NCBI RefSeq assembly: GCF_006345805.1
Contig: NW_021824236.1
Coordinates: 1 to 24,147 of the forward strand
Direction: 5' to 3'
Origin: Octopus sinensis
Taxonomy: Eukaryota
Length of the DNA: 24,147 nt
Under the pieces are notes generated by a model, which was not told the origin of the DNA, made no database searches, and was given only the letters and a program-made list of their open reading frames with translations. Shown here piece by piece: positions 630 through 19,887 of this stretch; position 1 is the stretch's first letter, and every line of letters begins with the position of its first letter. The translations under genes were made by a program, and so were the position numbers.

Positions 630-850
630 TATATATAACGGGAAGCTTTATGAAAATAAACAAAAGACGAAGGCAGGTGGAAAACAAACGAACAATTGTA
701 TTAGTATGACGCTCAGGAAATATAAATAAAACAAGTCTTTAACGTTTCGAGCCTACGCTCTTCAACAGAAAGATACACAGAGAGAGAAAACACAGAAGAA
801 GAAGGAGAGAAAAAAAATGCGTGCAGTAGCTAACGAATCAACATGGCGAT
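630..850 (-). mobile_element. Penelope-like pseudo-LTR-type repeat carrying a minimal hammerhead (family shared with 14665-14858)
   Basis: Reverse complement aligns by eye with 14665-14858 (…tcgttagc…tctctcctt…tttctgtNgaNgagcgtaggctcgaaacgtNaaagac…ttcctgagcgtNatactaatac…ccacctgNcttcgtctt…). Ends at a (TA)n run. PLE assignment is inferred from the minimal-hammerhead architecture. Confidence 0.65.
736..773 (-). ncRNA. Minimal type-I hammerhead ribozyme candidate (core CUGUUGA + extra A)
   Basis: Minus strand reads TCTTT-CTGTTGA-A-GAGC gtag GCTC-GAAAC-GTT-AAAGA: 5-bp stem I, 4-bp stem II, palindromic ACGT stem III, GUU cleavage triplet. Confidence 0.65.
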
Positions 851-1431: not shown

Positions 1432-1615
1432 ATTAATTCGAGACAAAACCATATTTTGCAAAACAAACAAGGAAAGACTTAATCAATACATAAAAATTTT
1501 TTAATATAAAGAAATAAATAAATATTTATTTATTTATTTATATTAAAAATTTTTATGTATTGATTAAGTCTTTCCTTGTTTGTTTTACAAAATAGTGGTT
1601 TTGTCTCGAATTAAT
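1432..1615. repeat. ~184-bp near-perfect spacerless palindrome
   Basis: attaattcgagacaaaacc…aaataaataaat | atttatttattt…ggttttgtctcgaattaat, centre at 1523/1524, few mismatches. Confidence 0.9.
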
Positions 1616-1731
1616 ATTATATAATATTTTACTATAAAATTGGATTTAATCCTAAATCTGATTTTTTCCCTGTAAATTTGGATTTATTCCCTAATATTAT
1701 ATATATATATATGATTATATTTTCGCAGCAT

Positions 1732-1950
1732 ATTCTTTACTACTCCAGGCACAAGGCCTGGAAGTTTTGGGGAAGGTGTGCCAGTCGATTATATCGACCC
1801 CAGTACGCAACTGGTACTTAAATTATCGACCCCGAAAAGATGAAATGCAAAGTCGACCTCGGCGGAATTTGAACTCACAACGTGAAGACCGATGAAATGC
1901 CACTAAGCATTTTACCCGGCGTGCTAACGTTTCTGCCAGCTTGCCGCCTT
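1732..1950 (-). mobile_element. tRNA-head SINE
   Basis: Minus strand: aaggcggcaagcTGGCAGAAACGTTAG (A-box-like) … GAGTTCAAATTCC (B box). Degenerate relatives at ~17080-17252 and ~23940-24147. Confidence 0.75.
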
Positions 1951-2259
1951 TCTTAGACTTCAAATAACAATAAAGCACAGGTAAATATTGAACCAGCGTT
2001 TTACAGTTACTGAATGTCTCACGTTTCTCTTGAATTTCTTTATGAAACCATGTCCACCTTTCGACCTACACCCAATTCGGTGTCAAATTACTCAAGATTT
2101 ATCACAAGTCATTCCTTACCTCCTTTCACACGCACAAATAACTCACTTTCTTATATTGTTTGGCAATTCTCTTAATTCTTAACTTTGAAAAGCCAGACAT
2201 CCAAGCTCCCACCCTCCACTTCTCCCTCTTTTTTCCGCTCCACTTCCCACATACACATA

Positions 2260-2290
<31 letters not shown>

Positions 2291-2833
2291 CACACACACA
2301 CAAATACGGAGACATCCTTTATAGAAAAAAAATTCCTTAAAATAAAAACACACAAAAAACCTTTTTTTTTTTTTAGTATCAAGAACAACAATAAGATCGA
2401 CACGAAAATAATTATAACACAATAAAAAAATATAAAGGGGAGGGGCAGAAATAAGAACGAAATACCAAAGAACAAAAGAACGACAACAATAACAACAAAA
2501 AAACTACGGCAAAAACTTCGGCAACAAAAATAAAAGACAAACTAAACAATCAACAAATCTTGTGCTTCAGAGCGTAAAGTGTATCTCGGCTAAGTCACCA
2601 GGGGAGTAAATAGTGCTCTAGTTCGTTCTCAACCAAACCCCTCACAACATAGACGTCGGTCAGAAGAAATCTGACCCACGATGTATAAGACTTAGAGCGC
2701 CTGTTTTTTGTGGAGCTTTTTTATTTTTTTTTTGTCATTTTATTTTTTACTTTATTTTATTATTATTTTCTTTCTCTTTTTTTTTTAACCTTTTATATCG
2801 GTTTCTTTGTTTATATTCGCTTTAGTGTTGGTA

Positions 2834-2863
2834 CTGCTGCTGCTACTACTACTACTACTACTA

Positions 2864-2905
<42 letters not shown>

Positions 2906-3235
2906 ACGCACCTCATCCGACGGCACCCCTGTGGCAAATACATGAAATCTCCATGATAGACGACGTCATTCTCATGGTCATCGCCATCGGCAATGATATC
3001 CCCATCGTCATCATAGTCGTCATCATCATCATCATCATCGTCGCCGTCGTCGTCAACATCAGCATCATCAACATCATCATCAATATCATCATCACCATCG
3101 TAATCACCGTTGTTGTCAGCGTCGTCGTCGTCATCATCGTCGTCGTCGTGAGTAGTAATAGCAGCTAAAGTAATAGTGGCGGTGGCGGTGGTGGTGATGG
3201 TGATGGTGGTGGTGGTGGTGTAGGTGTTAGTAGTA
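2834..3235. repeat. Trinucleotide low-complexity tract (CTA)n, (CAT/CGT)n, (GGT)n
   Basis: Visible directly; explains the poly-L/I/V/T ORFs here. Confidence 0.9.
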
Positions 3236-3381
3236 GTATCGACCCCTTAATTTTGTCCGACAAAAGGCTTCGTCAGCCGTGTAAACATTAAGTACAACGC
3301 AATTGAAGCGTTACGTTCCTCACAATTTAGGGTCTGGCCTGGTTTATCAGGGAGACAATTTACAAGCAATCATCTTTTGCC

Positions 3382-3434
<53 letters not shown>

Positions 3435-3499
3435 CTATCTATCTATCTATCTATATCTATCTATCTCTCTATCTATCTATCTATCTATCTATCTGTCTG

Positions 3500-3557
<58 letters not shown>

Positions 3558-3600
3558 ATCTGTCTGTCTGTCTCTATCTATCTATCTATATATATATATC

Positions 3601-3653
<53 letters not shown>

Positions 3654-3681
3654 CTGTGTGTGTATGTGTGTGTGTGTGTGT
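3382..3681. repeat. Compound microsatellite (TATC)n-(TA)n-(TG)n
   Basis: Visible directly. Confidence 0.95.
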
Positions 3682-3970
3682 GGAGGCGCAATGGCCCAGT
3701 GGTTAGGGAGCGGACTCGTGGTCGTAGGATCGCGTTTTCGATTCCCAGACCGGGCGTTGTGAGTGTTTCTTGAGCGAAAACAATTAAAGCTCCATGAGGC
3801 TCCGGCAGGGGGCGGTGGCGATTCCTGCTGTACTCTTTCGCCACAACTTTCTCTCACTCTTTCTTCTGTTGGCCTGCTCGCTTAGCCAGCGGGGTGGCGT
3901 CATTTGAAGGCTAAAACAATGCGAAGCGCATTGTGACCAGCGACGTGGTCGTTCACGGTGATCACGGTGA
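3682..3970 (+). mobile_element. tRNA-head SINE (head A + tail X)
   Basis: ggaggcgcaaTGGCCCAGTGGttagg A box, degenerate B box TTTCGATTCC. Closely similar copy at 11862-12165. Confidence 0.8.
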
Positions 3971-6832: not shown

Positions 6833-6836
<4 letters not shown>

Positions 6837-9658: not shown

Positions 9659-9780
9659 GACTCTATATATGTATATAAAAAATAGAAAAGAGCGACAAAA
9701 CTACAGAAGGCTTGTTTTATAATATATTTAAGTCGTTATGTTAGAAAAATGTTATAAAATTTTGTATATAGTAACATAGT

Positions 9781-9828
9781 ATTTGGAGAAATTACCGGTT
9801 TCGTGTTAACTTTTCAAATTTCTCAAAT
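9781..9828 (-). ncRNA. Minimal type-I hammerhead ribozyme candidate, U3-A8 core variant
   Basis: Minus strand: ATTTGAGAAAT-TTGAAAA-GT taac AC-GAAAC-CG-GTA-ATTTCTC(C)AAAT. 7-bp stem I extendable past a bulge, G10.1-C11.1 pair, palindromic ACCGGT stem III, GUA triplet. Lies in the Penelope pseudo-LTR. Confidence 0.75.
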
Positions 9829-9851
9829 GTCTACATCGTGTCATGTCTTCG

Positions 9852-11405
9852 TTATGAAGTGCAAAGAAGAGTTCCAGGCAGGGGGAGGTAATAAGGGATT
9901 TCTTCCGGTATAAGGGAGATAATCGCTATATATTTCTTTTCCCCCTTTTCAATGAGACGAGTTTCTCTGTATAAATTTTTAGGATGGTAAAGTTCAGGCT
10001 TATATTTTTCAATGAAGAATGTTTCCTTGTTTAATCTAATTTGTGTTGGTGTTCCAATAGCACATTGATAGAATGGAAAGATTAAAAATTGTGGTAGTAG
10101 TTGCTTTCCGCATTTCTCAATATGGGAATGCAATCTGTTGTCGATGCAGAGTGCATCTCCGTCTGAGTGATAATCCCGTGGACCATACGTAGTTTTCGTG
10201 GCAGCCCGAGCATCTTATGACATAAATTATGTTTTCAGAAGCGCAAGTAAAATTAGATTTGATCTTGAATTTTTGTCCCTCTTTGAAAAGGAATTCTGAT
10301 CCTTCTAGAAGGTTTTGGGCATGTTGCGCAGTTTGGACTACTACATTTTTTTTACTTTTGCATCCGTAATTTCAGAAAACAATTTTGCCTTTGTGAGAAT
10401 CTTTTTAAGTGATTTAGGTTGTTTGTAGCTTTTAATGATTTTATGTATGTTTAGAATTTCCTTTAATTTGGGGTCCTTATGAAGTATTGGTAAATTCTGG
10501 GTGATGATGGTGAAGGCTTCTTTGTTTCTGGGGTTGTATGTGGATATGTAAGGCAGTATTTTCGGGGAAGGTGTGTTGTTGTGTTGAACTTTTCTCAAAG
10601 TTTCTATGTCGATTTCTGTTGCACGTCTGATCCCATCCTCTATGAGTAAAACTGGGTAGTGTATGTCAATTAGGGTGTTTTTGAGTTCTTGTAGTCTAAA
10701 GTTCCTGGTATTTTGTTCTGACACTATTGTGCATATCCTTCTTGCAAGATTGAAAGGGATGTTTGTTTTAGTGTGTCTTGGGTGGCATGAATCAAAAAGT
10801 AGGTATTGTTTGGCGTCTGTGGTTTTCTAAAATATGTCTGTTTCTATTCTTAGGTTAATTTTCTTAATCAGTATATCTAAAAATGGAAGCTCCTTTTGGT
10901 TGTACTCCATTGTGAACTGTATATTTGGGTTGATGCTGTTCAATAGGTTTTCGAATTTTAGGAGTTTATCTGTGTTTTCATTCCAGAGTATAAAACAATC
11001 ATCCAGGAATCTTTTCCAATTCTCTTTTATGTATTGAGAAAGGGGGTTTCCAAAGGTCGATAAAGATTCCTGGTATATAATTATTTCCAGGTAGCCCATT
11101 ATTAGGTTCGCAATGACTGGTGCTGCACTTGTACACATAGTAATTCCGGATTTTTTACGGTAAAACGTATTGTCAAACATGAAGTGGTTATTTTGTAGGA
11201 TGAATTCAACCGATTTAGTAATGAACTCTTTACTGATCCTTTTTGGTATTTCTTCCGGAAATTGGTCCAGCCAGAACTGTATTGCCTCTTGTCCATAATT
11301 ATGAGGTATACTGGTATATAAATTAACTAAATCAAATGAAACCATGATTGTTTCTTCCTTGACTTTTTTTTAAAGGTGCTTTAACATATCCAAGTCATCT
11401 CTGAT
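9852..11405 (-). pseudogene. Disrupted Penelope RT + GIY-YIG endonuclease ORF
   Basis: RT motifs VSFDLVNLYTSIP, GITMCTSAAP, WKRFLDDCF, IQFTME, LPFLDILI; thumb SCHP…NIPFNLARRI; GIY-YIG-type IKSNFTCASENIIYVIRCSGCHENYV (~10185-10270). Broken by stops and frameshifts (ORFs 10827-11345, 10341-10724, 9852-10133). Confidence 0.9.
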
Positions 11406-11474
11406 ATGACTATCGATGCCTGGAACTCTTCTTTGCACTTCATAACGAAGACATGACACGATGTAGGTAAAGAC

Positions 11475-11517
11475 ATTTGAAAAATTTGAAAAGCTTACAC
11501 GAAACCGGTAATTTCTC
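11475..11517 (+). ncRNA. Second copy of the U3-A8 hammerhead, in the inverted pseudo-LTR
   Basis: GAAAAAT-TTGAAAA-G cttaca C-GAAAC-CG-GTA-ATTTCTC. Same core, with one mismatch in stem I and one in stem II. Confidence 0.65.
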
Positions 11518-11702
11518 CCAAAACTATGTTACTATATACAAAATTTTATAACATTTTTCTAACATAACGACTTAAATATATTCTTTAACCTTATAAAACA
11601 AGCCTTCTGTAGTTTTTTCACTCTTTTCTATTTTTTATATATCCAACAACGTGGATTTCACACACCAACATTCTCACCTATATATATATATATATATTAT
11701 AT

Positions 11703-14664: not shown

Positions 14665-14858
14665 ATAGATCGTTAGCCCATACACTATTTATTTCTCTCC
14701 TTGTTTTTTTTCTGTGTCCCTTTCTGTAGACGAGCGTAGGCTCGAAACGTAAAAGACTTTTTCTATTCCTGAGCGTTATACTAATACATCTGTTTGTTTT
14801 GTCCACCACCTGTCTTCGTCTTCTGTTTTTTTTTTTCGTAAACTCTCCAATAAATATA
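14665..14858 (+). mobile_element. Solo Penelope-like pseudo-LTR-type repeat with hammerhead
   Basis: Homologous to 630-850 (minus); TA-rich flanks. Confidence 0.65.
14716..14757 (+). ncRNA. Minimal hammerhead candidate (core CUGUAGA + extra C)
   Basis: CTTT-CTGTAGA-C-GAGC gtag GCTC-GAAAC-GTA-AAAG; GUA triplet at 14749-14751. Confidence 0.65.
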
Positions 14859-17079: not shown

Positions 17080-17252
17080 TTGTTTCAAATTTTGACACAA
17101 GGGTAGCAGTTTTAGCGGAGGAGTAAGTTACTTGCAACGACTCCAGTACTTTACTGGTAATTTATCGACCCCCAAAAAGCGGAAAGGTAAAATCAACCGC
17201 GGGGGAATTTGGGTCCATCACGTAAACCCGAAAGAGATGCCACTAAACATTT
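17080..17252 (-). mobile_element. Degenerate SINE of the 1732-1950 family
   Basis: ccagtac…actggta…ttatcgacccc…aaa…ggaatttg…atgccactaaacattt parallels 1799-1912. Confidence 0.6.
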
Positions 17253-19887
17253 CTGTAAAGTCTGAACCATCAAAAGACGAAGTGCACGGTTTTTGGAATA
17301 AAATTTGGGCAGAAGAAAAAACACACAACGAAAAGGCCCCTTGGATTGATAGAATAGCTACGGACTTGTACTCCTTAGAGAAGAAAGAGTGGGAGGGTGT
17401 CAAGGTAGAAGATGTAAGATCTCCTCTCAGGAGGTCAAGCAAATGGAAGTCTCCGGGAAAGGATAAAACTCCTAACTTCTGGTTGAATGCCTTTCCAGAG
17501 AGCCATGAACTGCTAACAGAACTTTACAATGATGTTTTGCAACACCCTAGTAGGATGCCTTCCTTGGTTAGTTAATGGGTTAACATTCCTGCTTTCAAAA
17601 AGTGAAGAAACACATTAACCAAAAAACTATAGACCCATAACCTGCTTAACAACTATGTATAAAACGCTAACATCTGTCCTGAAAGAATATACCTATAGTT
17701 TTTTAATAGACAGCAGCATATTCCCTAATGAACAGAAAGGATGTAAACGTGGATCCTATGGTTGTAAAGATCAGCTACTCATCAATAAGATGATCTTAGA
17801 AGATTGTCACAAACGACACAAAAACATGTCAATAGCCTGGATAGACTATAAAATGGCTTTTGATAGCCTACCACATAGCTGGATAAAGAAATGCATGGAA
17901 ATGTACAAAATAGTGCCTACTCTGCGAAACTTTTTGTCTGTAAGTATGAGATCATGGAGAACCACACTAACTTTGAACAGTGACGATGAATCTCTAAATG
18001 CTGGTGATGTAAAAATTTCGTGTGGCATTTTCCAGGGTGACTCACTATCACCACTCCTCTTTTGTTTAGCCTTAATACCTCTCTTAAAATTGCTCAATGA
18101 CGCACAGTACGGATATGAAATGTTGGATAAAAATATAAATCATCTCATTTACATCGATGATTTAAAGCTCTTTGCAAAAAATGACCAAAAGAATGACCAA
18201 CAACTCAAGGGCTTACTAACGATTGTTAAACAATTCAGCGATGACATCAGAATGCAATTTGGCCTCGATAAATGTGCAAAAGCTACTTTAATCAAAGGAA
18301 AAATGACAGAAACATCTAACGTTTACCTCGACCAGCAGAATGTCATAAAAGAGTTAGACCCAGTGGAGAGCTACAAATACCTAGGGGTAATTGAAGGGGA
18401 TGGAATAAGGCATTCAATGATGAAGGAAAGAATTAGGAGAGAATGTTATCGCAGAGTAAGAGCAATACTCAAGACAAAGCTGAATGCAAGAAACAGAATT
18501 GAAACGTTCAATGCATTAGCCATACCAGTCGTGACTTACAGTTTCAATATCGTTAACTGGTCAATTACTGAAATATGTAATCTTGACAGAAAATACGAAA
18601 ACTGTTGACAATGCATAGAATGCACCACCCTAATGCAGATACAGAACGACTTTATCTACCAAGAAAAGAGGGAGGCGTGGTCTTTTACAACTTGCAATAA
18701 CAATGAAGATTGCTACAATTGGCCTAGACACCTACTGAAAAAAACTCTGAGGAACTGGTGTTTTTAAACTTGTCTCAAAACATGAAAACAAGAAAGTATC
18801 ATACTCAGTAAACAAAACAGGCAAAGAAATATCTAAGTGAATTCCGAATACAACAAATTCCGGAATTAGAGATAGATATACAAGAAACAAGCACAGAAAA
18901 AGCTAAACGCATGAAAACCCGTGCTAAAACTGCTGCCTTAGATATTCTGAATGATAAATGGCAAGAAAAACCACTCAATGGCAAATACCCAAAGAGAGTG
19001 AATAATGCAGATGATGACAAAGCCCTGACCCATCAATGGCTAATGGCCTCTGAAACAGATGGGTTTAATCATAGCAGCTCAAGATAAATGCCTACCTACA
19101 AGGAACTACTAAGCCAACATATTAAAGAACGGCAGTAGCCCAACATGTCGTGTACGTCAACAACAAAATGAAACCATTGATCATGTTGTCTCCAAGTGCA
19201 GTCTTCTTGTGCCTACAGAGTATCTTAACAGGCTGCACAAAATATTAACTGGGTAATTTGCAGAAGCCTGGACTTGCCCCATGATAAAAACTGGTGGGAA
19301 CACAAACTACCTCCAGTGCTTGAAAATGACCACATCTCACTCCTCTGGAACTTCACCATTCAAACTGACAGAAAGATAGACGCGAATAGGCCAGACATCA
19401 TAGTAAAAGACTTCAGACAAAAATCACGCCTCCTCATTGATATGACTGTCCCAATCGATATAAACGTATCTGTCAAGACCTACCAAAAACTGAGCAAATA
19501 TAAAGATCTGGAAATAGAAATTGGCAAAATGTGGAGCCTGAAGAATAAAACAATATCTGTTGTCACATGTGTCCTGGGAATGATAGCAAAAGGGGCTGAT
19601 TGCTACCTAACTCAGATACCAGGAAACCCAAAAATGGCAGAAATTCAAAAGATAGTGCTCATGGGAACTGCTCATATACTACGCAAAATACTTTCTTTGT
19701 AATCTCAAGTTTTAAAACAAACATAATTTTCGTATGTTTTTTAGGCATTCACTAGTACAACACTAAGTACAAAACCAAATATATGGTACCCTAGGCATAA
19801 CACAAACATGAACTTCCAACTTGTTGTCTCTTGAGGCCTCTGGGTGAGACTTGAAGAATTGTGCAAATGTAAAGGAAAAGTCAAACA

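What the first reader, a model, noticed from the sequence alone, without database searches (positions are those of the whole stretch)
9781..9828. Penelope hammerhead with a compensatory U3-A8 core (UUGAAAA instead of CUGANGA)
Seen: GAGAAAT-TTGAAAA-GT(taac)AC-GAAAC-CG-GTA-ATTTCTC in the 3' pseudo-LTR of a clear RT + GIY-YIG element, and the same core in the inverted copy (11486-11492), so it is not a one-off mutation. Known: C3 and G8 form a tertiary Watson-Crick pair in the active hammerhead; a double change to U3-A8 preserves it and is a rare natural variant. The ACCGGT palindrome fits dimeric stem III formation. Inference: a working non-canonical ribozyme invisible to standard motif searches. 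With the A6U family, two distinct core variants sit within 15 kb, hinting at a hidden range of variant hammerheads in this lineage.
Basis: partly seen in the sequence, partly recalled or inferred. Interest (0 to 1): 0.8.

Follow-up and report, generated by a model that had tools for sequence, protein, structure and literature searches.

The report
Retroelement hammerheads swapping their core pair
This is a hammerhead-shaped RNA motif in a broken copy of a Penelope-like retrotransposon; its U3-A8 core variant is already published, but related elements in the same genome carry all four Watson-Crick versions of that core pair, which likely means the motif is selected to cut RNA, probably as a dimer (cutting was not tested).

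Summary
It is a minimal type I hammerhead in the 3' pseudo-LTR of a broken, 5'-truncated Penelope-like element (PLE), with an inverted second copy. U3-A8 is family-wide: 2,541 of 3,998 exact genomic matches. It is neither new nor rare: the same core heptamer is printed for a Schistosoma PLE (PMC4209133), and 5 of 28 distant PLE loci with a hammerhead carry U3-A8.

The stronger result lies outside the finding. Related PLE families in this genome use A3-U8 (1,049), G3-C8 (79), C3-G8 (4) and U3·G8 (178). That implies at least three double changes on the protein tree, each ending on a Watson-Crick pair. This pair forms in the active fold, so selection on cleavage is likely. I found no natural A3-U8 or G3-C8 in print, but the most relevant paper (Lünse 2017) could not be read.

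Against a strict, fast ribozyme: helix II is 1-2 bp, and 813 copies lack A1.1. The window's own copies lie on opposite strands and are probably relics. No cleavage data exist. Verdict: new variant of a known kind, interest 0.42.

The parts
9786..9824 (-). Minimal type I hammerhead motif, copy 1 (7-bp stem I, U3-A8 core, 2-bp stem II, palindromic stem III, GUA triplet; predicted cut 9793/9792)
9811..9817 (-). Core positions 3-9, UUGAAAA (U3 at 9817, A8 at 9812)
   Evidence: 2,541 U3-A8 matches in the genome
9794..9799 (-). Self-complementary hexamer A15.1-U16.1, predicted to form the shared helix III of a dimer
   Evidence: hammerhead-shaped dimer -13.3 kcal/mol against -1.9 per monomer
9672..9880 (-). 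3' pseudo-LTR of the element, ending in a (TA)n-like stretch
   Evidence: (I3)
9924..11417 (-). 5'-truncated, frameshifted PLE ORF2 remnant (RT, linker, GIY-YIG endonuclease), 75.5% identical to residues 317-821 of the full-length relative in L091
10319..10345 (-). CX4CX2C linker motif between RT and endonuclease (Neptune/Nematis type)
   Evidence: motif as described in PMC8557442
10183..10233 (-). GIY-YIG motif region; the glycine of the second triplet reads W in this copy
   Evidence: aligned region hits PF01541 in homologues P0005 and P0006
11417..11641 (+). Inverted pseudo-LTR copy at the truncation point
11479..11517 (+). Hammerhead motif copy 2 (core 11486-11492, predicted cut after 11510), with one mismatch each in stems I and II
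11642..11685 (+). One-sided 'tail' extension matching the sequence just downstream of the 5' pseudo-LTR of full-length copies, followed by (TA)n
   Evidence: tail described in PMC8557442

Best explanation
The motif is the pseudo-LTR hammerhead of a Penelope-like retrotransposon family, fixed as U3-A8 across most of that family, and it likely cuts the element's RNA slowly, as a predicted dimer, in intact elements, while the broken copy in this window is probably a relic. Shown: position in the pseudo-LTR, family-wide U3-A8, covarying stem I, G17 avoidance, and Watson-Crick swaps at 3:8 in related families. Inferred: a transcript of a full-length or tandem element carries two motifs (3,995 nt apart in L091). 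Their ACCGGU hexamers pair into a shared 6-bp helix III, each core closes the 3:8 pair, and cleavage follows N17, releasing a unit-length RNA with a 5'-OH and a 2',3'-cyclic phosphate. By analogy with the anole element PAc, the element's own protein may assist folding. The pair only needs to be complementary, so families drift between C-G, U-A, A-U and G-C, with U·G as a tolerated intermediate. In the window the two motifs face opposite ways, so a read-through RNA would hold one sense and one antisense copy and would likely form a roughly 200-bp duplex instead of an active dimer.
For: Genome counts with positions 3 and 8 free: 3,673 of 3,998 are Watson-Crick and 178 more are U·G. G17 occurs in 29 scattered matches against 3,998 with H17, while A17, C17 and U17 each mark subfamilies. 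98 of 170 distinct sites lie 80-350 nt downstream of a same-strand PLE endonuclease end, in every pair class. The protein tree of 47 rows implies at least three double changes, all ending on Watson-Crick pairs. A3-U8 and G3-C8 copies share one pseudo-LTR family (78-90% identical, no lower than the 79-84% among the A3-U8 copies). All six stem I pairs show two-sided changes, with 90.6% of cells paired against 65.9 ± 1.8% in shuffles. In 87 distant PLE loci, 33 of 33 hits are Watson-Crick at 3:8. In print: the 3:8 pair forms in the active conformation (PMC3884650 passages); PLE hammerheads cleave weakly as dimers (PMC4209133); the PAc hammerhead is protein-assisted and rescued by C3G/G8C (PMC11167929 passages).
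Against: No cleavage or RNA-end data. 813 copies lack A1.1, leaving a U·U or a bulge at the base of stem I; that is about 30% of the 2,719 U3-A8 plus U3·G8 matches. The youngest branch of the window's clade is U3·G8 and also lacks A1.1. Helix II is one pair in 6 of 27 representatives. Copy counts are dominated by a few amplified families and are not independent events. The patterns demanded an intact GAAACCGGT, so decayed copies were excluded. Branching inside the mixed A3-U8/G3-C8 clade is poorly supported (23-93). PAc catalytic mutants still insert in vitro, and Naiads proliferate without canonical hammerheads.
Confidence: 0.72

Rival explanations
1. Relaxed or fading ribozyme: the motif was selected in ancestral families, which explains the old compensatory swaps, but current families no longer need cleavage and are accumulating defects.
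For: Young amplifying subfamilies with U3·G8 and loss of A1.1; one-pair helix II; PAc insertion is unaffected by catalytic mutations in vitro.
Against: The near-intact young subfamily (L091, L092, L094-L096, L099) has a full stem I and a 2-bp stem II. No G17 subfamily exists. Among 100 listed non-U3 matches the 10 mismatched ones are scattered, by my count.
Confidence: 0.17
2. The fold is kept as a protein-binding or RNA-dimerisation signal for the retrotransposon protein, and cleavage is incidental.
For: The hexamer palindrome is the same in all families examined, including metagenome relatives L195 and L200. The PAc motif is active only with protein.
Against: The 3:8 pair and the H17 rule are features of the cleavage-competent state, and both are kept across families. 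The genome patterns fixed the palindrome, so its invariance there is by construction.
Confidence: 0.08
3. Chance match to a relaxed pattern in AT-rich pseudo-LTR sequence.
For: Monomer folding is not significant, and there is no Rfam hit.
Against: 3,998 matches against 7 for the reversed pattern; fixed position behind the endonuclease gene; covariation.
Confidence: 0.03

Closest known systems
Minimal type I hammerheads of metazoan PLEs, including the U3-A8 variant of Schistosoma mansoni Cercyon elements (Cervera and De la Peña 2014, PMC4209133; read: main text parts 1-2 of 4, supplement parts 1-2 of 3)
   Same: Type I topology in pseudo-LTRs, palindromic positions 15-16, G10.1-C11.1, and U3-A8. 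The S. mansoni (4) row has the same core heptamer.
   Different: Helix II here is 1-2 bp (3 bp or more in the 56 rows of their Fig. S3). There is no extra nucleotide between A9 and G10.1. Their 56 rows hold 53 C-G, 2 U-A, 1 U·G and no A3-U8 or G3-C8, by my count.
Natural core variants of Perreault et al. 2011 (PMC3088659; read: section 8 and passages)
   Same: Natural U3-A8 covariation; stem II of two pairs is common, and of one pair in one case.
   Different: The section read reports only C3-G8 to U3-A8; purine-3/pyrimidine-8 pairs are not mentioned.
Dimeric PLE-associated hammerheads of Lünse, Weinberg and Breaker 2017 (PMC5785218; not held, seen only as cited in PMC6765202 and PMC7761336)
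   Same: Short stem III, PLE association and cleavage as dimers, according to the citing reviews.
   Different: Unknown: its alignments may already contain A3-U8 or G3-C8. This is the main gap in the novelty claim.
PAc (Poseidon, Anolis) hammerhead (PMC11167929; read: passages)
   Same: PLE pseudo-LTR hammerhead whose activity depends on the 3:8 pair; the engineered G3-C8 partly rescues.
   Different: Natural C3-G8. There the motif overlaps the ORF start; G3-C8 is an engineered mutant there and a natural family state here.
EN+ PLEs of Neptune/Nematis type (PMC8557442; read: passages)
   Same: RT with C-terminal GIY-YIG, CX2-5CxxC linker, inverted 5'-truncated pseudo-LTR, one-sided tail, microsatellite flanks.
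   Different: Placement against reference Neptune and Nematis sequences was not tested.

Membership tests
Type I hammerhead, PLE short-helix-III form | Core U4 G5 A6 N7 and A9, G12 A13 A14 A15.1, U16.1, H17 | tested here: met
   G17 in 29 matches against 3,998 with H17
Type I hammerhead, PLE short-helix-III form | Complementary 3:8 pair (C3-G8 or the published U3-A8) | tested here: met
   U3-A8 in both window copies; published variant
Type I hammerhead, strict CUGANGA consensus or Rfam models | C3 and G8 exactly; Rfam gathering score | tested here: not met
   No hammerhead hit up to E 10; a C3-G8 relative of the same shape reaches only E 4-6
Type I hammerhead, PLE short-helix-III form | Stem I closing the motif | tested here: met
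   7 bp in copy 1; two-sided changes in 6 of 6 pairs; imperfect in copy 2 and in 813 genomic copies
Type I hammerhead, PLE short-helix-III form | Stem II with G10.1-C11.1 | tested here: inconclusive
   2 bp in copy 1. G-C was fixed by the search patterns; the second pair is C-G in 13, U-A in 8 and unpaired in 6 of 27
Type I hammerhead, PLE short-helix-III form | Palindromic positions 15-16 allowing a dimeric helix III | tested here: met
   ACCGGU hexamer; dimer model -13.3 against -1.9 kcal/mol per monomer
Type I hammerhead, PLE short-helix-III form | Self-cleavage 3' of N17 | not testable with these tools
   Only assembled contigs were available, which cannot show RNA ends
EN+ Penelope-like element | [quoted passage not shown] | tested here: met
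   RVT_1 on L091 ORF2 (PF01541 itself did not hit L091); PF01541 above cut-off on the 57%-identical P0005 over the aligned C-terminus; window remnant 75.5% identical
EN+ Penelope-like element | Pseudo-LTRs, direct or inverted, with a one-sided tail | tested here: met
   Inverted in the window; direct in L091
Neptune/Nematis clades | CX2-5CxxC linker between RT and endonuclease | tested here: met
   10319-10345 minus
Neptune/Nematis clades | RT phylogeny with reference clade members | not tested
   No reference Neptune or Nematis sequences were fetched
Non-LTR retrozyme | Non-coding tandem monomers, each with a hammerhead | tested here: not met
   The motif flanks a coding PLE; the window copies are inverted, not tandem

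The most novel reading that the evidence does not exclude
One PLE clade has naturally sampled all four Watson-Crick versions of the hammerhead's 3:8 tertiary pair, plus U·G, on a scaffold with only 1-2 bp of helix II. The purine-3/pyrimidine-8 cores (A3-U8, over 1,000 copies; G3-C8, 79) would be unreported natural ribozymes missed by CUGANGA descriptors. Their covariation would be direct evolutionary evidence that PLE hammerheads are kept for catalysis, and some PLEs scored as 'hammerhead-less' may carry such cores.
Probability: 0.4. Interest if true: 0.62.

Novelty: new variant of a known kind. Interest (0 to 1): 0.42.

Why it matters
The role of hammerheads in Penelope-like elements is open: they cleave poorly in vitro, are dispensable for insertion in one reconstituted system, and have been suggested to be mere passengers (PMC4209133, PMC11167929, PMC8557442). 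A pair that forms in the active fold and is repeatedly restored by double changes argues for selection on cleavage. These families give a ready natural panel (U-A, A-U, G-C, C-G, U·G, with and without A1.1) to test that. In practice, descriptors that fix CUGANGA would find 4 of the 3,998 motifs of this class in this genome. The U3-A8 variant by itself adds only a new host lineage to a published observation.

Tried and rejected
Rfam scans found no hammerhead in the window; the microRNA-family hits are microsatellite artefacts. Monomer folding z-scores were uninformative. Expression: no RNA holder was listed on record; four runs laid on L091:1250-2600 were contigs only and cannot show ends or strand, so they give no evidence either way. 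The first tree held a false link (L098, whose A3-U8 motif lies 913 nt from an unrelated copy) and frameshifted tails; it was replaced, which required 80-350 nt spacing, masked low-identity stretches, kept 71 of 98 linked sites by coverage and thinned U3-A8 rows to reach 47. The 100% pairing of the 3:8 column is by construction (rows were picked from class-specific searches) and is not used as evidence. The A3-U8 pattern in viral contigs gave 2 hits without stem I, taken as chance. I looked by eye for a conserved loop II/stem I tertiary contact and saw none shared by all families. The contig look-up for the closest protein homologues was closed, so hammerheads of the 55-74% identical relatives P0001-P0007 were not seen. 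Searches of earlier scan findings returned nothing. Papers not held: Lünse 2017 (one search was a wrong id), Przybilski and Hammann 2007 (72), Nelson and Uhlenbeck 2008 (77), Arkhipova 2017 (79, by DOI only).

Full report
Observation. The motif is present as described. A relaxed type I scan of the whole window returned three candidates: this one (core at 9817, minus), an A6U motif at 768 and one weak AT-rich match. Copy 1 has a 7-bp stem I, core UUGAAAA, a 2-bp stem II, GAAA, the self-complementary hexamer ACCGGU and a GUA triplet. Copy 2 (core 11486-11492, plus) has one mismatch in each of stems I and II. Folding alone is unremarkable. Rfam gives no hammerhead, but a C3-G8 relative of the same shape reaches only E 4-6, so the architecture is the main reason.

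Context. The motif lies in a 209-nt pseudo-LTR that occurs twice in inverted orientation (202 of 209 identical) around a 5'-truncated, frameshifted reading frame at 9924-11417 on the minus strand. That frame is 75.5% identical to ORF2 of a full-length relative, L091. ORF2 hits RVT_1. Its C-terminus aligns with the PF01541 GIY-YIG domain of the 57%-identical P0005, and a CX4CX2C linker precedes it. An inverted truncated copy, a one-sided tail and microsatellite flanks are the PLE layout described in PMC8557442 (passages). L091 carries the motif in two direct pseudo-LTRs 3,995 nt apart. The host is an unnamed 2.72-Gb animal genome; its repeats remind me of octopus, which is recalled and not tested.

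Is U3-A8 new? No. PMC4209133 reports U3-A8 in Schistosoma Cercyon PLEs with about 1,300 hits, and its Fig. S3 prints the same heptamer. PMC3088659 reported natural U3-A8 and 2-bp stems II in 2011. In 87 loci of distant PLE relatives (342,528 nt) a scan with positions 3, 6 and 8 free gave 33 hits in 28 loci: 25 C-G, 6 U-A (5 loci, one weak), 1 G-C (L242) and 1 A-U (L260). Ten plus-strand shuffles gave 0-1 hits each.

What the genome adds. Exact whole-genome counts for the pattern N3-UGA-N-N8-A, G-N5-8-C, GAAACCGG-UH: total 3,998 (reversed control 7), U3-A8 2,541, A3-U8 1,049, G3-C8 79, C3-G8 4, U3·G8 178. That leaves 147 others. Of 100 listed non-U3 matches, 87 are A-U, 3 G-C and 10 scattered mismatches (my count). 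G17 has 29 scattered matches. These are copies, not events, and decayed copies are excluded by the pattern. A3-U8, G3-C8 and C3-G8 sites sit behind PLE endonuclease ends about 35-68% identical to L091, mostly 50-62%. 98 of 170 distinct sites had such a link 80-350 nt upstream: 60 U-A, 12 G-C, 11 A-U, 11 U·G, 3 C-G, 1 G·A.

Tree. On 47 rows rooted with the C3-G8 metagenome relative L195, one clade (support 84) splits into pure A3-U8 families (100) and a mixed G3-C8/A3-U8 family (100; internal supports 23-93). The other clade (100) splits into an old C3-G8/U3·G8 family (100) and the U3-A8 family of the window (99), whose youngest branch is U3·G8. The minimum reading is three double changes, each ending on a Watson-Crick pair, and U·G arising twice. 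In the mixed family, A3-U8 and G3-C8 pseudo-LTRs are 78-90% identical. On 27 hand-picked representatives all six stem I pairs vary on both sides, and 90.6% of cells pair against 65.9 ± 1.8% in shuffles, 0 of 500 as high. Related rows inflate that test, and its 3:8 column is paired by construction.

Mechanism. The 3:8 pair appears in the tertiary-stabilised, active structure and not in the ground-state minimal one (PMC3884650 passages). Its repeated restoration, together with the H17 rule, therefore points to selection on cleavage in source elements (inference). A 2-nt loop cannot close helix III in a monomer. A hammerhead-shaped dimer through the hexamer is computed at -13.3 kcal/mol against -1.9 per monomer. 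I therefore favour slow dimeric cleavage of full-length or tandem transcripts into unit-length RNA, perhaps helped by the element's protein as for PAc. The window's copies are on opposite strands of a dead insertion and most likely do nothing.

Evidence against. 813 copies lack A1.1. U3·G8 subfamilies amplified recently. Helix II shrinks to one pair in some families. PAc catalytic mutants insert normally in vitro, and Naiads thrive without canonical hammerheads. No RNA-end data were obtainable. Constraint is thus real but loose.

Novelty. The literal finding is known. Natural A3-U8 and G3-C8 cores were not found in nine full-text searches, among the 56 rows of the PMC4209133 supplement (parts 1-2 of 3), or in passages of PMC6155905, PMC10085705, PMC7761336, PMC6765202 and bioRxiv 10.1101/2021.04.23.441226. 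Of bioRxiv 10.64898/2026.07.22.740005 I read part 1 of 5 only, and its supplements are closed. Lünse 2017, the paper most likely to contain such cores, was not held, nor were the two in vitro studies of 3:8 swaps. I rate this a new variant of a known kind, interest 0.42.

Noticed in passing
L091:3775-5262 and 1436-3949 (minus); L092, L099; L195:1330, L196:586, L203:549: Full-length copies have a 495-aa ORF1 overlapping ORF2 in the -1 frame, with a U-UUU-UUA slippery site at the junction. The same run sits at the start of the ORF2 match in three 43-49% identical relatives. Likely programmed -1 frameshifting; PMC8557442 Fig. 1 notes such frameshifts in some PLE types.
   Followed up: partly
window 762-768 (minus) and 14724-14730 (plus): Second hammerhead-like family with a C3-G8, A6U core, an extra nucleotide before a 4-bp stem II and a CG palindrome. 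Both window copies have U6; not counted genome-wide.
   Followed up: partly
G000-wide, e.g. L084, L169, L185: 813 copies in amplified subfamilies lack A1.1, leaving a U·U pair or an extra U between stem I and position 3. This resembles the small insertions near C3 reported for saltern hammerheads in PMC3088659.
   Followed up: partly
window 17096-19702 (plus), and 300-nt repeats at 6833, 7371, 7789, 20897: A non-LTR retrotransposon RT (RVT_1, E 2.5e-25) with a downstream frame that looks like a restriction-like endonuclease of R4/Dong type (label recalled), and repeats next to (TAA)n runs.
   Followed up: no
L275-L281: PLE RT-endonuclease genes 32-45% identical to L091 ORF2 lie on contigs filed in bacterial genome bins, most likely host DNA contamination.
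   Followed up: no
L242:117 and L260:1969: Single G3-C8 and A3-U8 hammerheads with longer helix II beside distant PLE genes (25-29% identity), suggesting these cores are not confined to this genome.
   Followed up: partly
G000:C2:15873148-15874273 and C1:150622823-150624000: Three motif copies each at about 545-nt and 575-nt spacing on one strand; possible retrozyme-like tandem arrays with variant cores.
   Followed up: no
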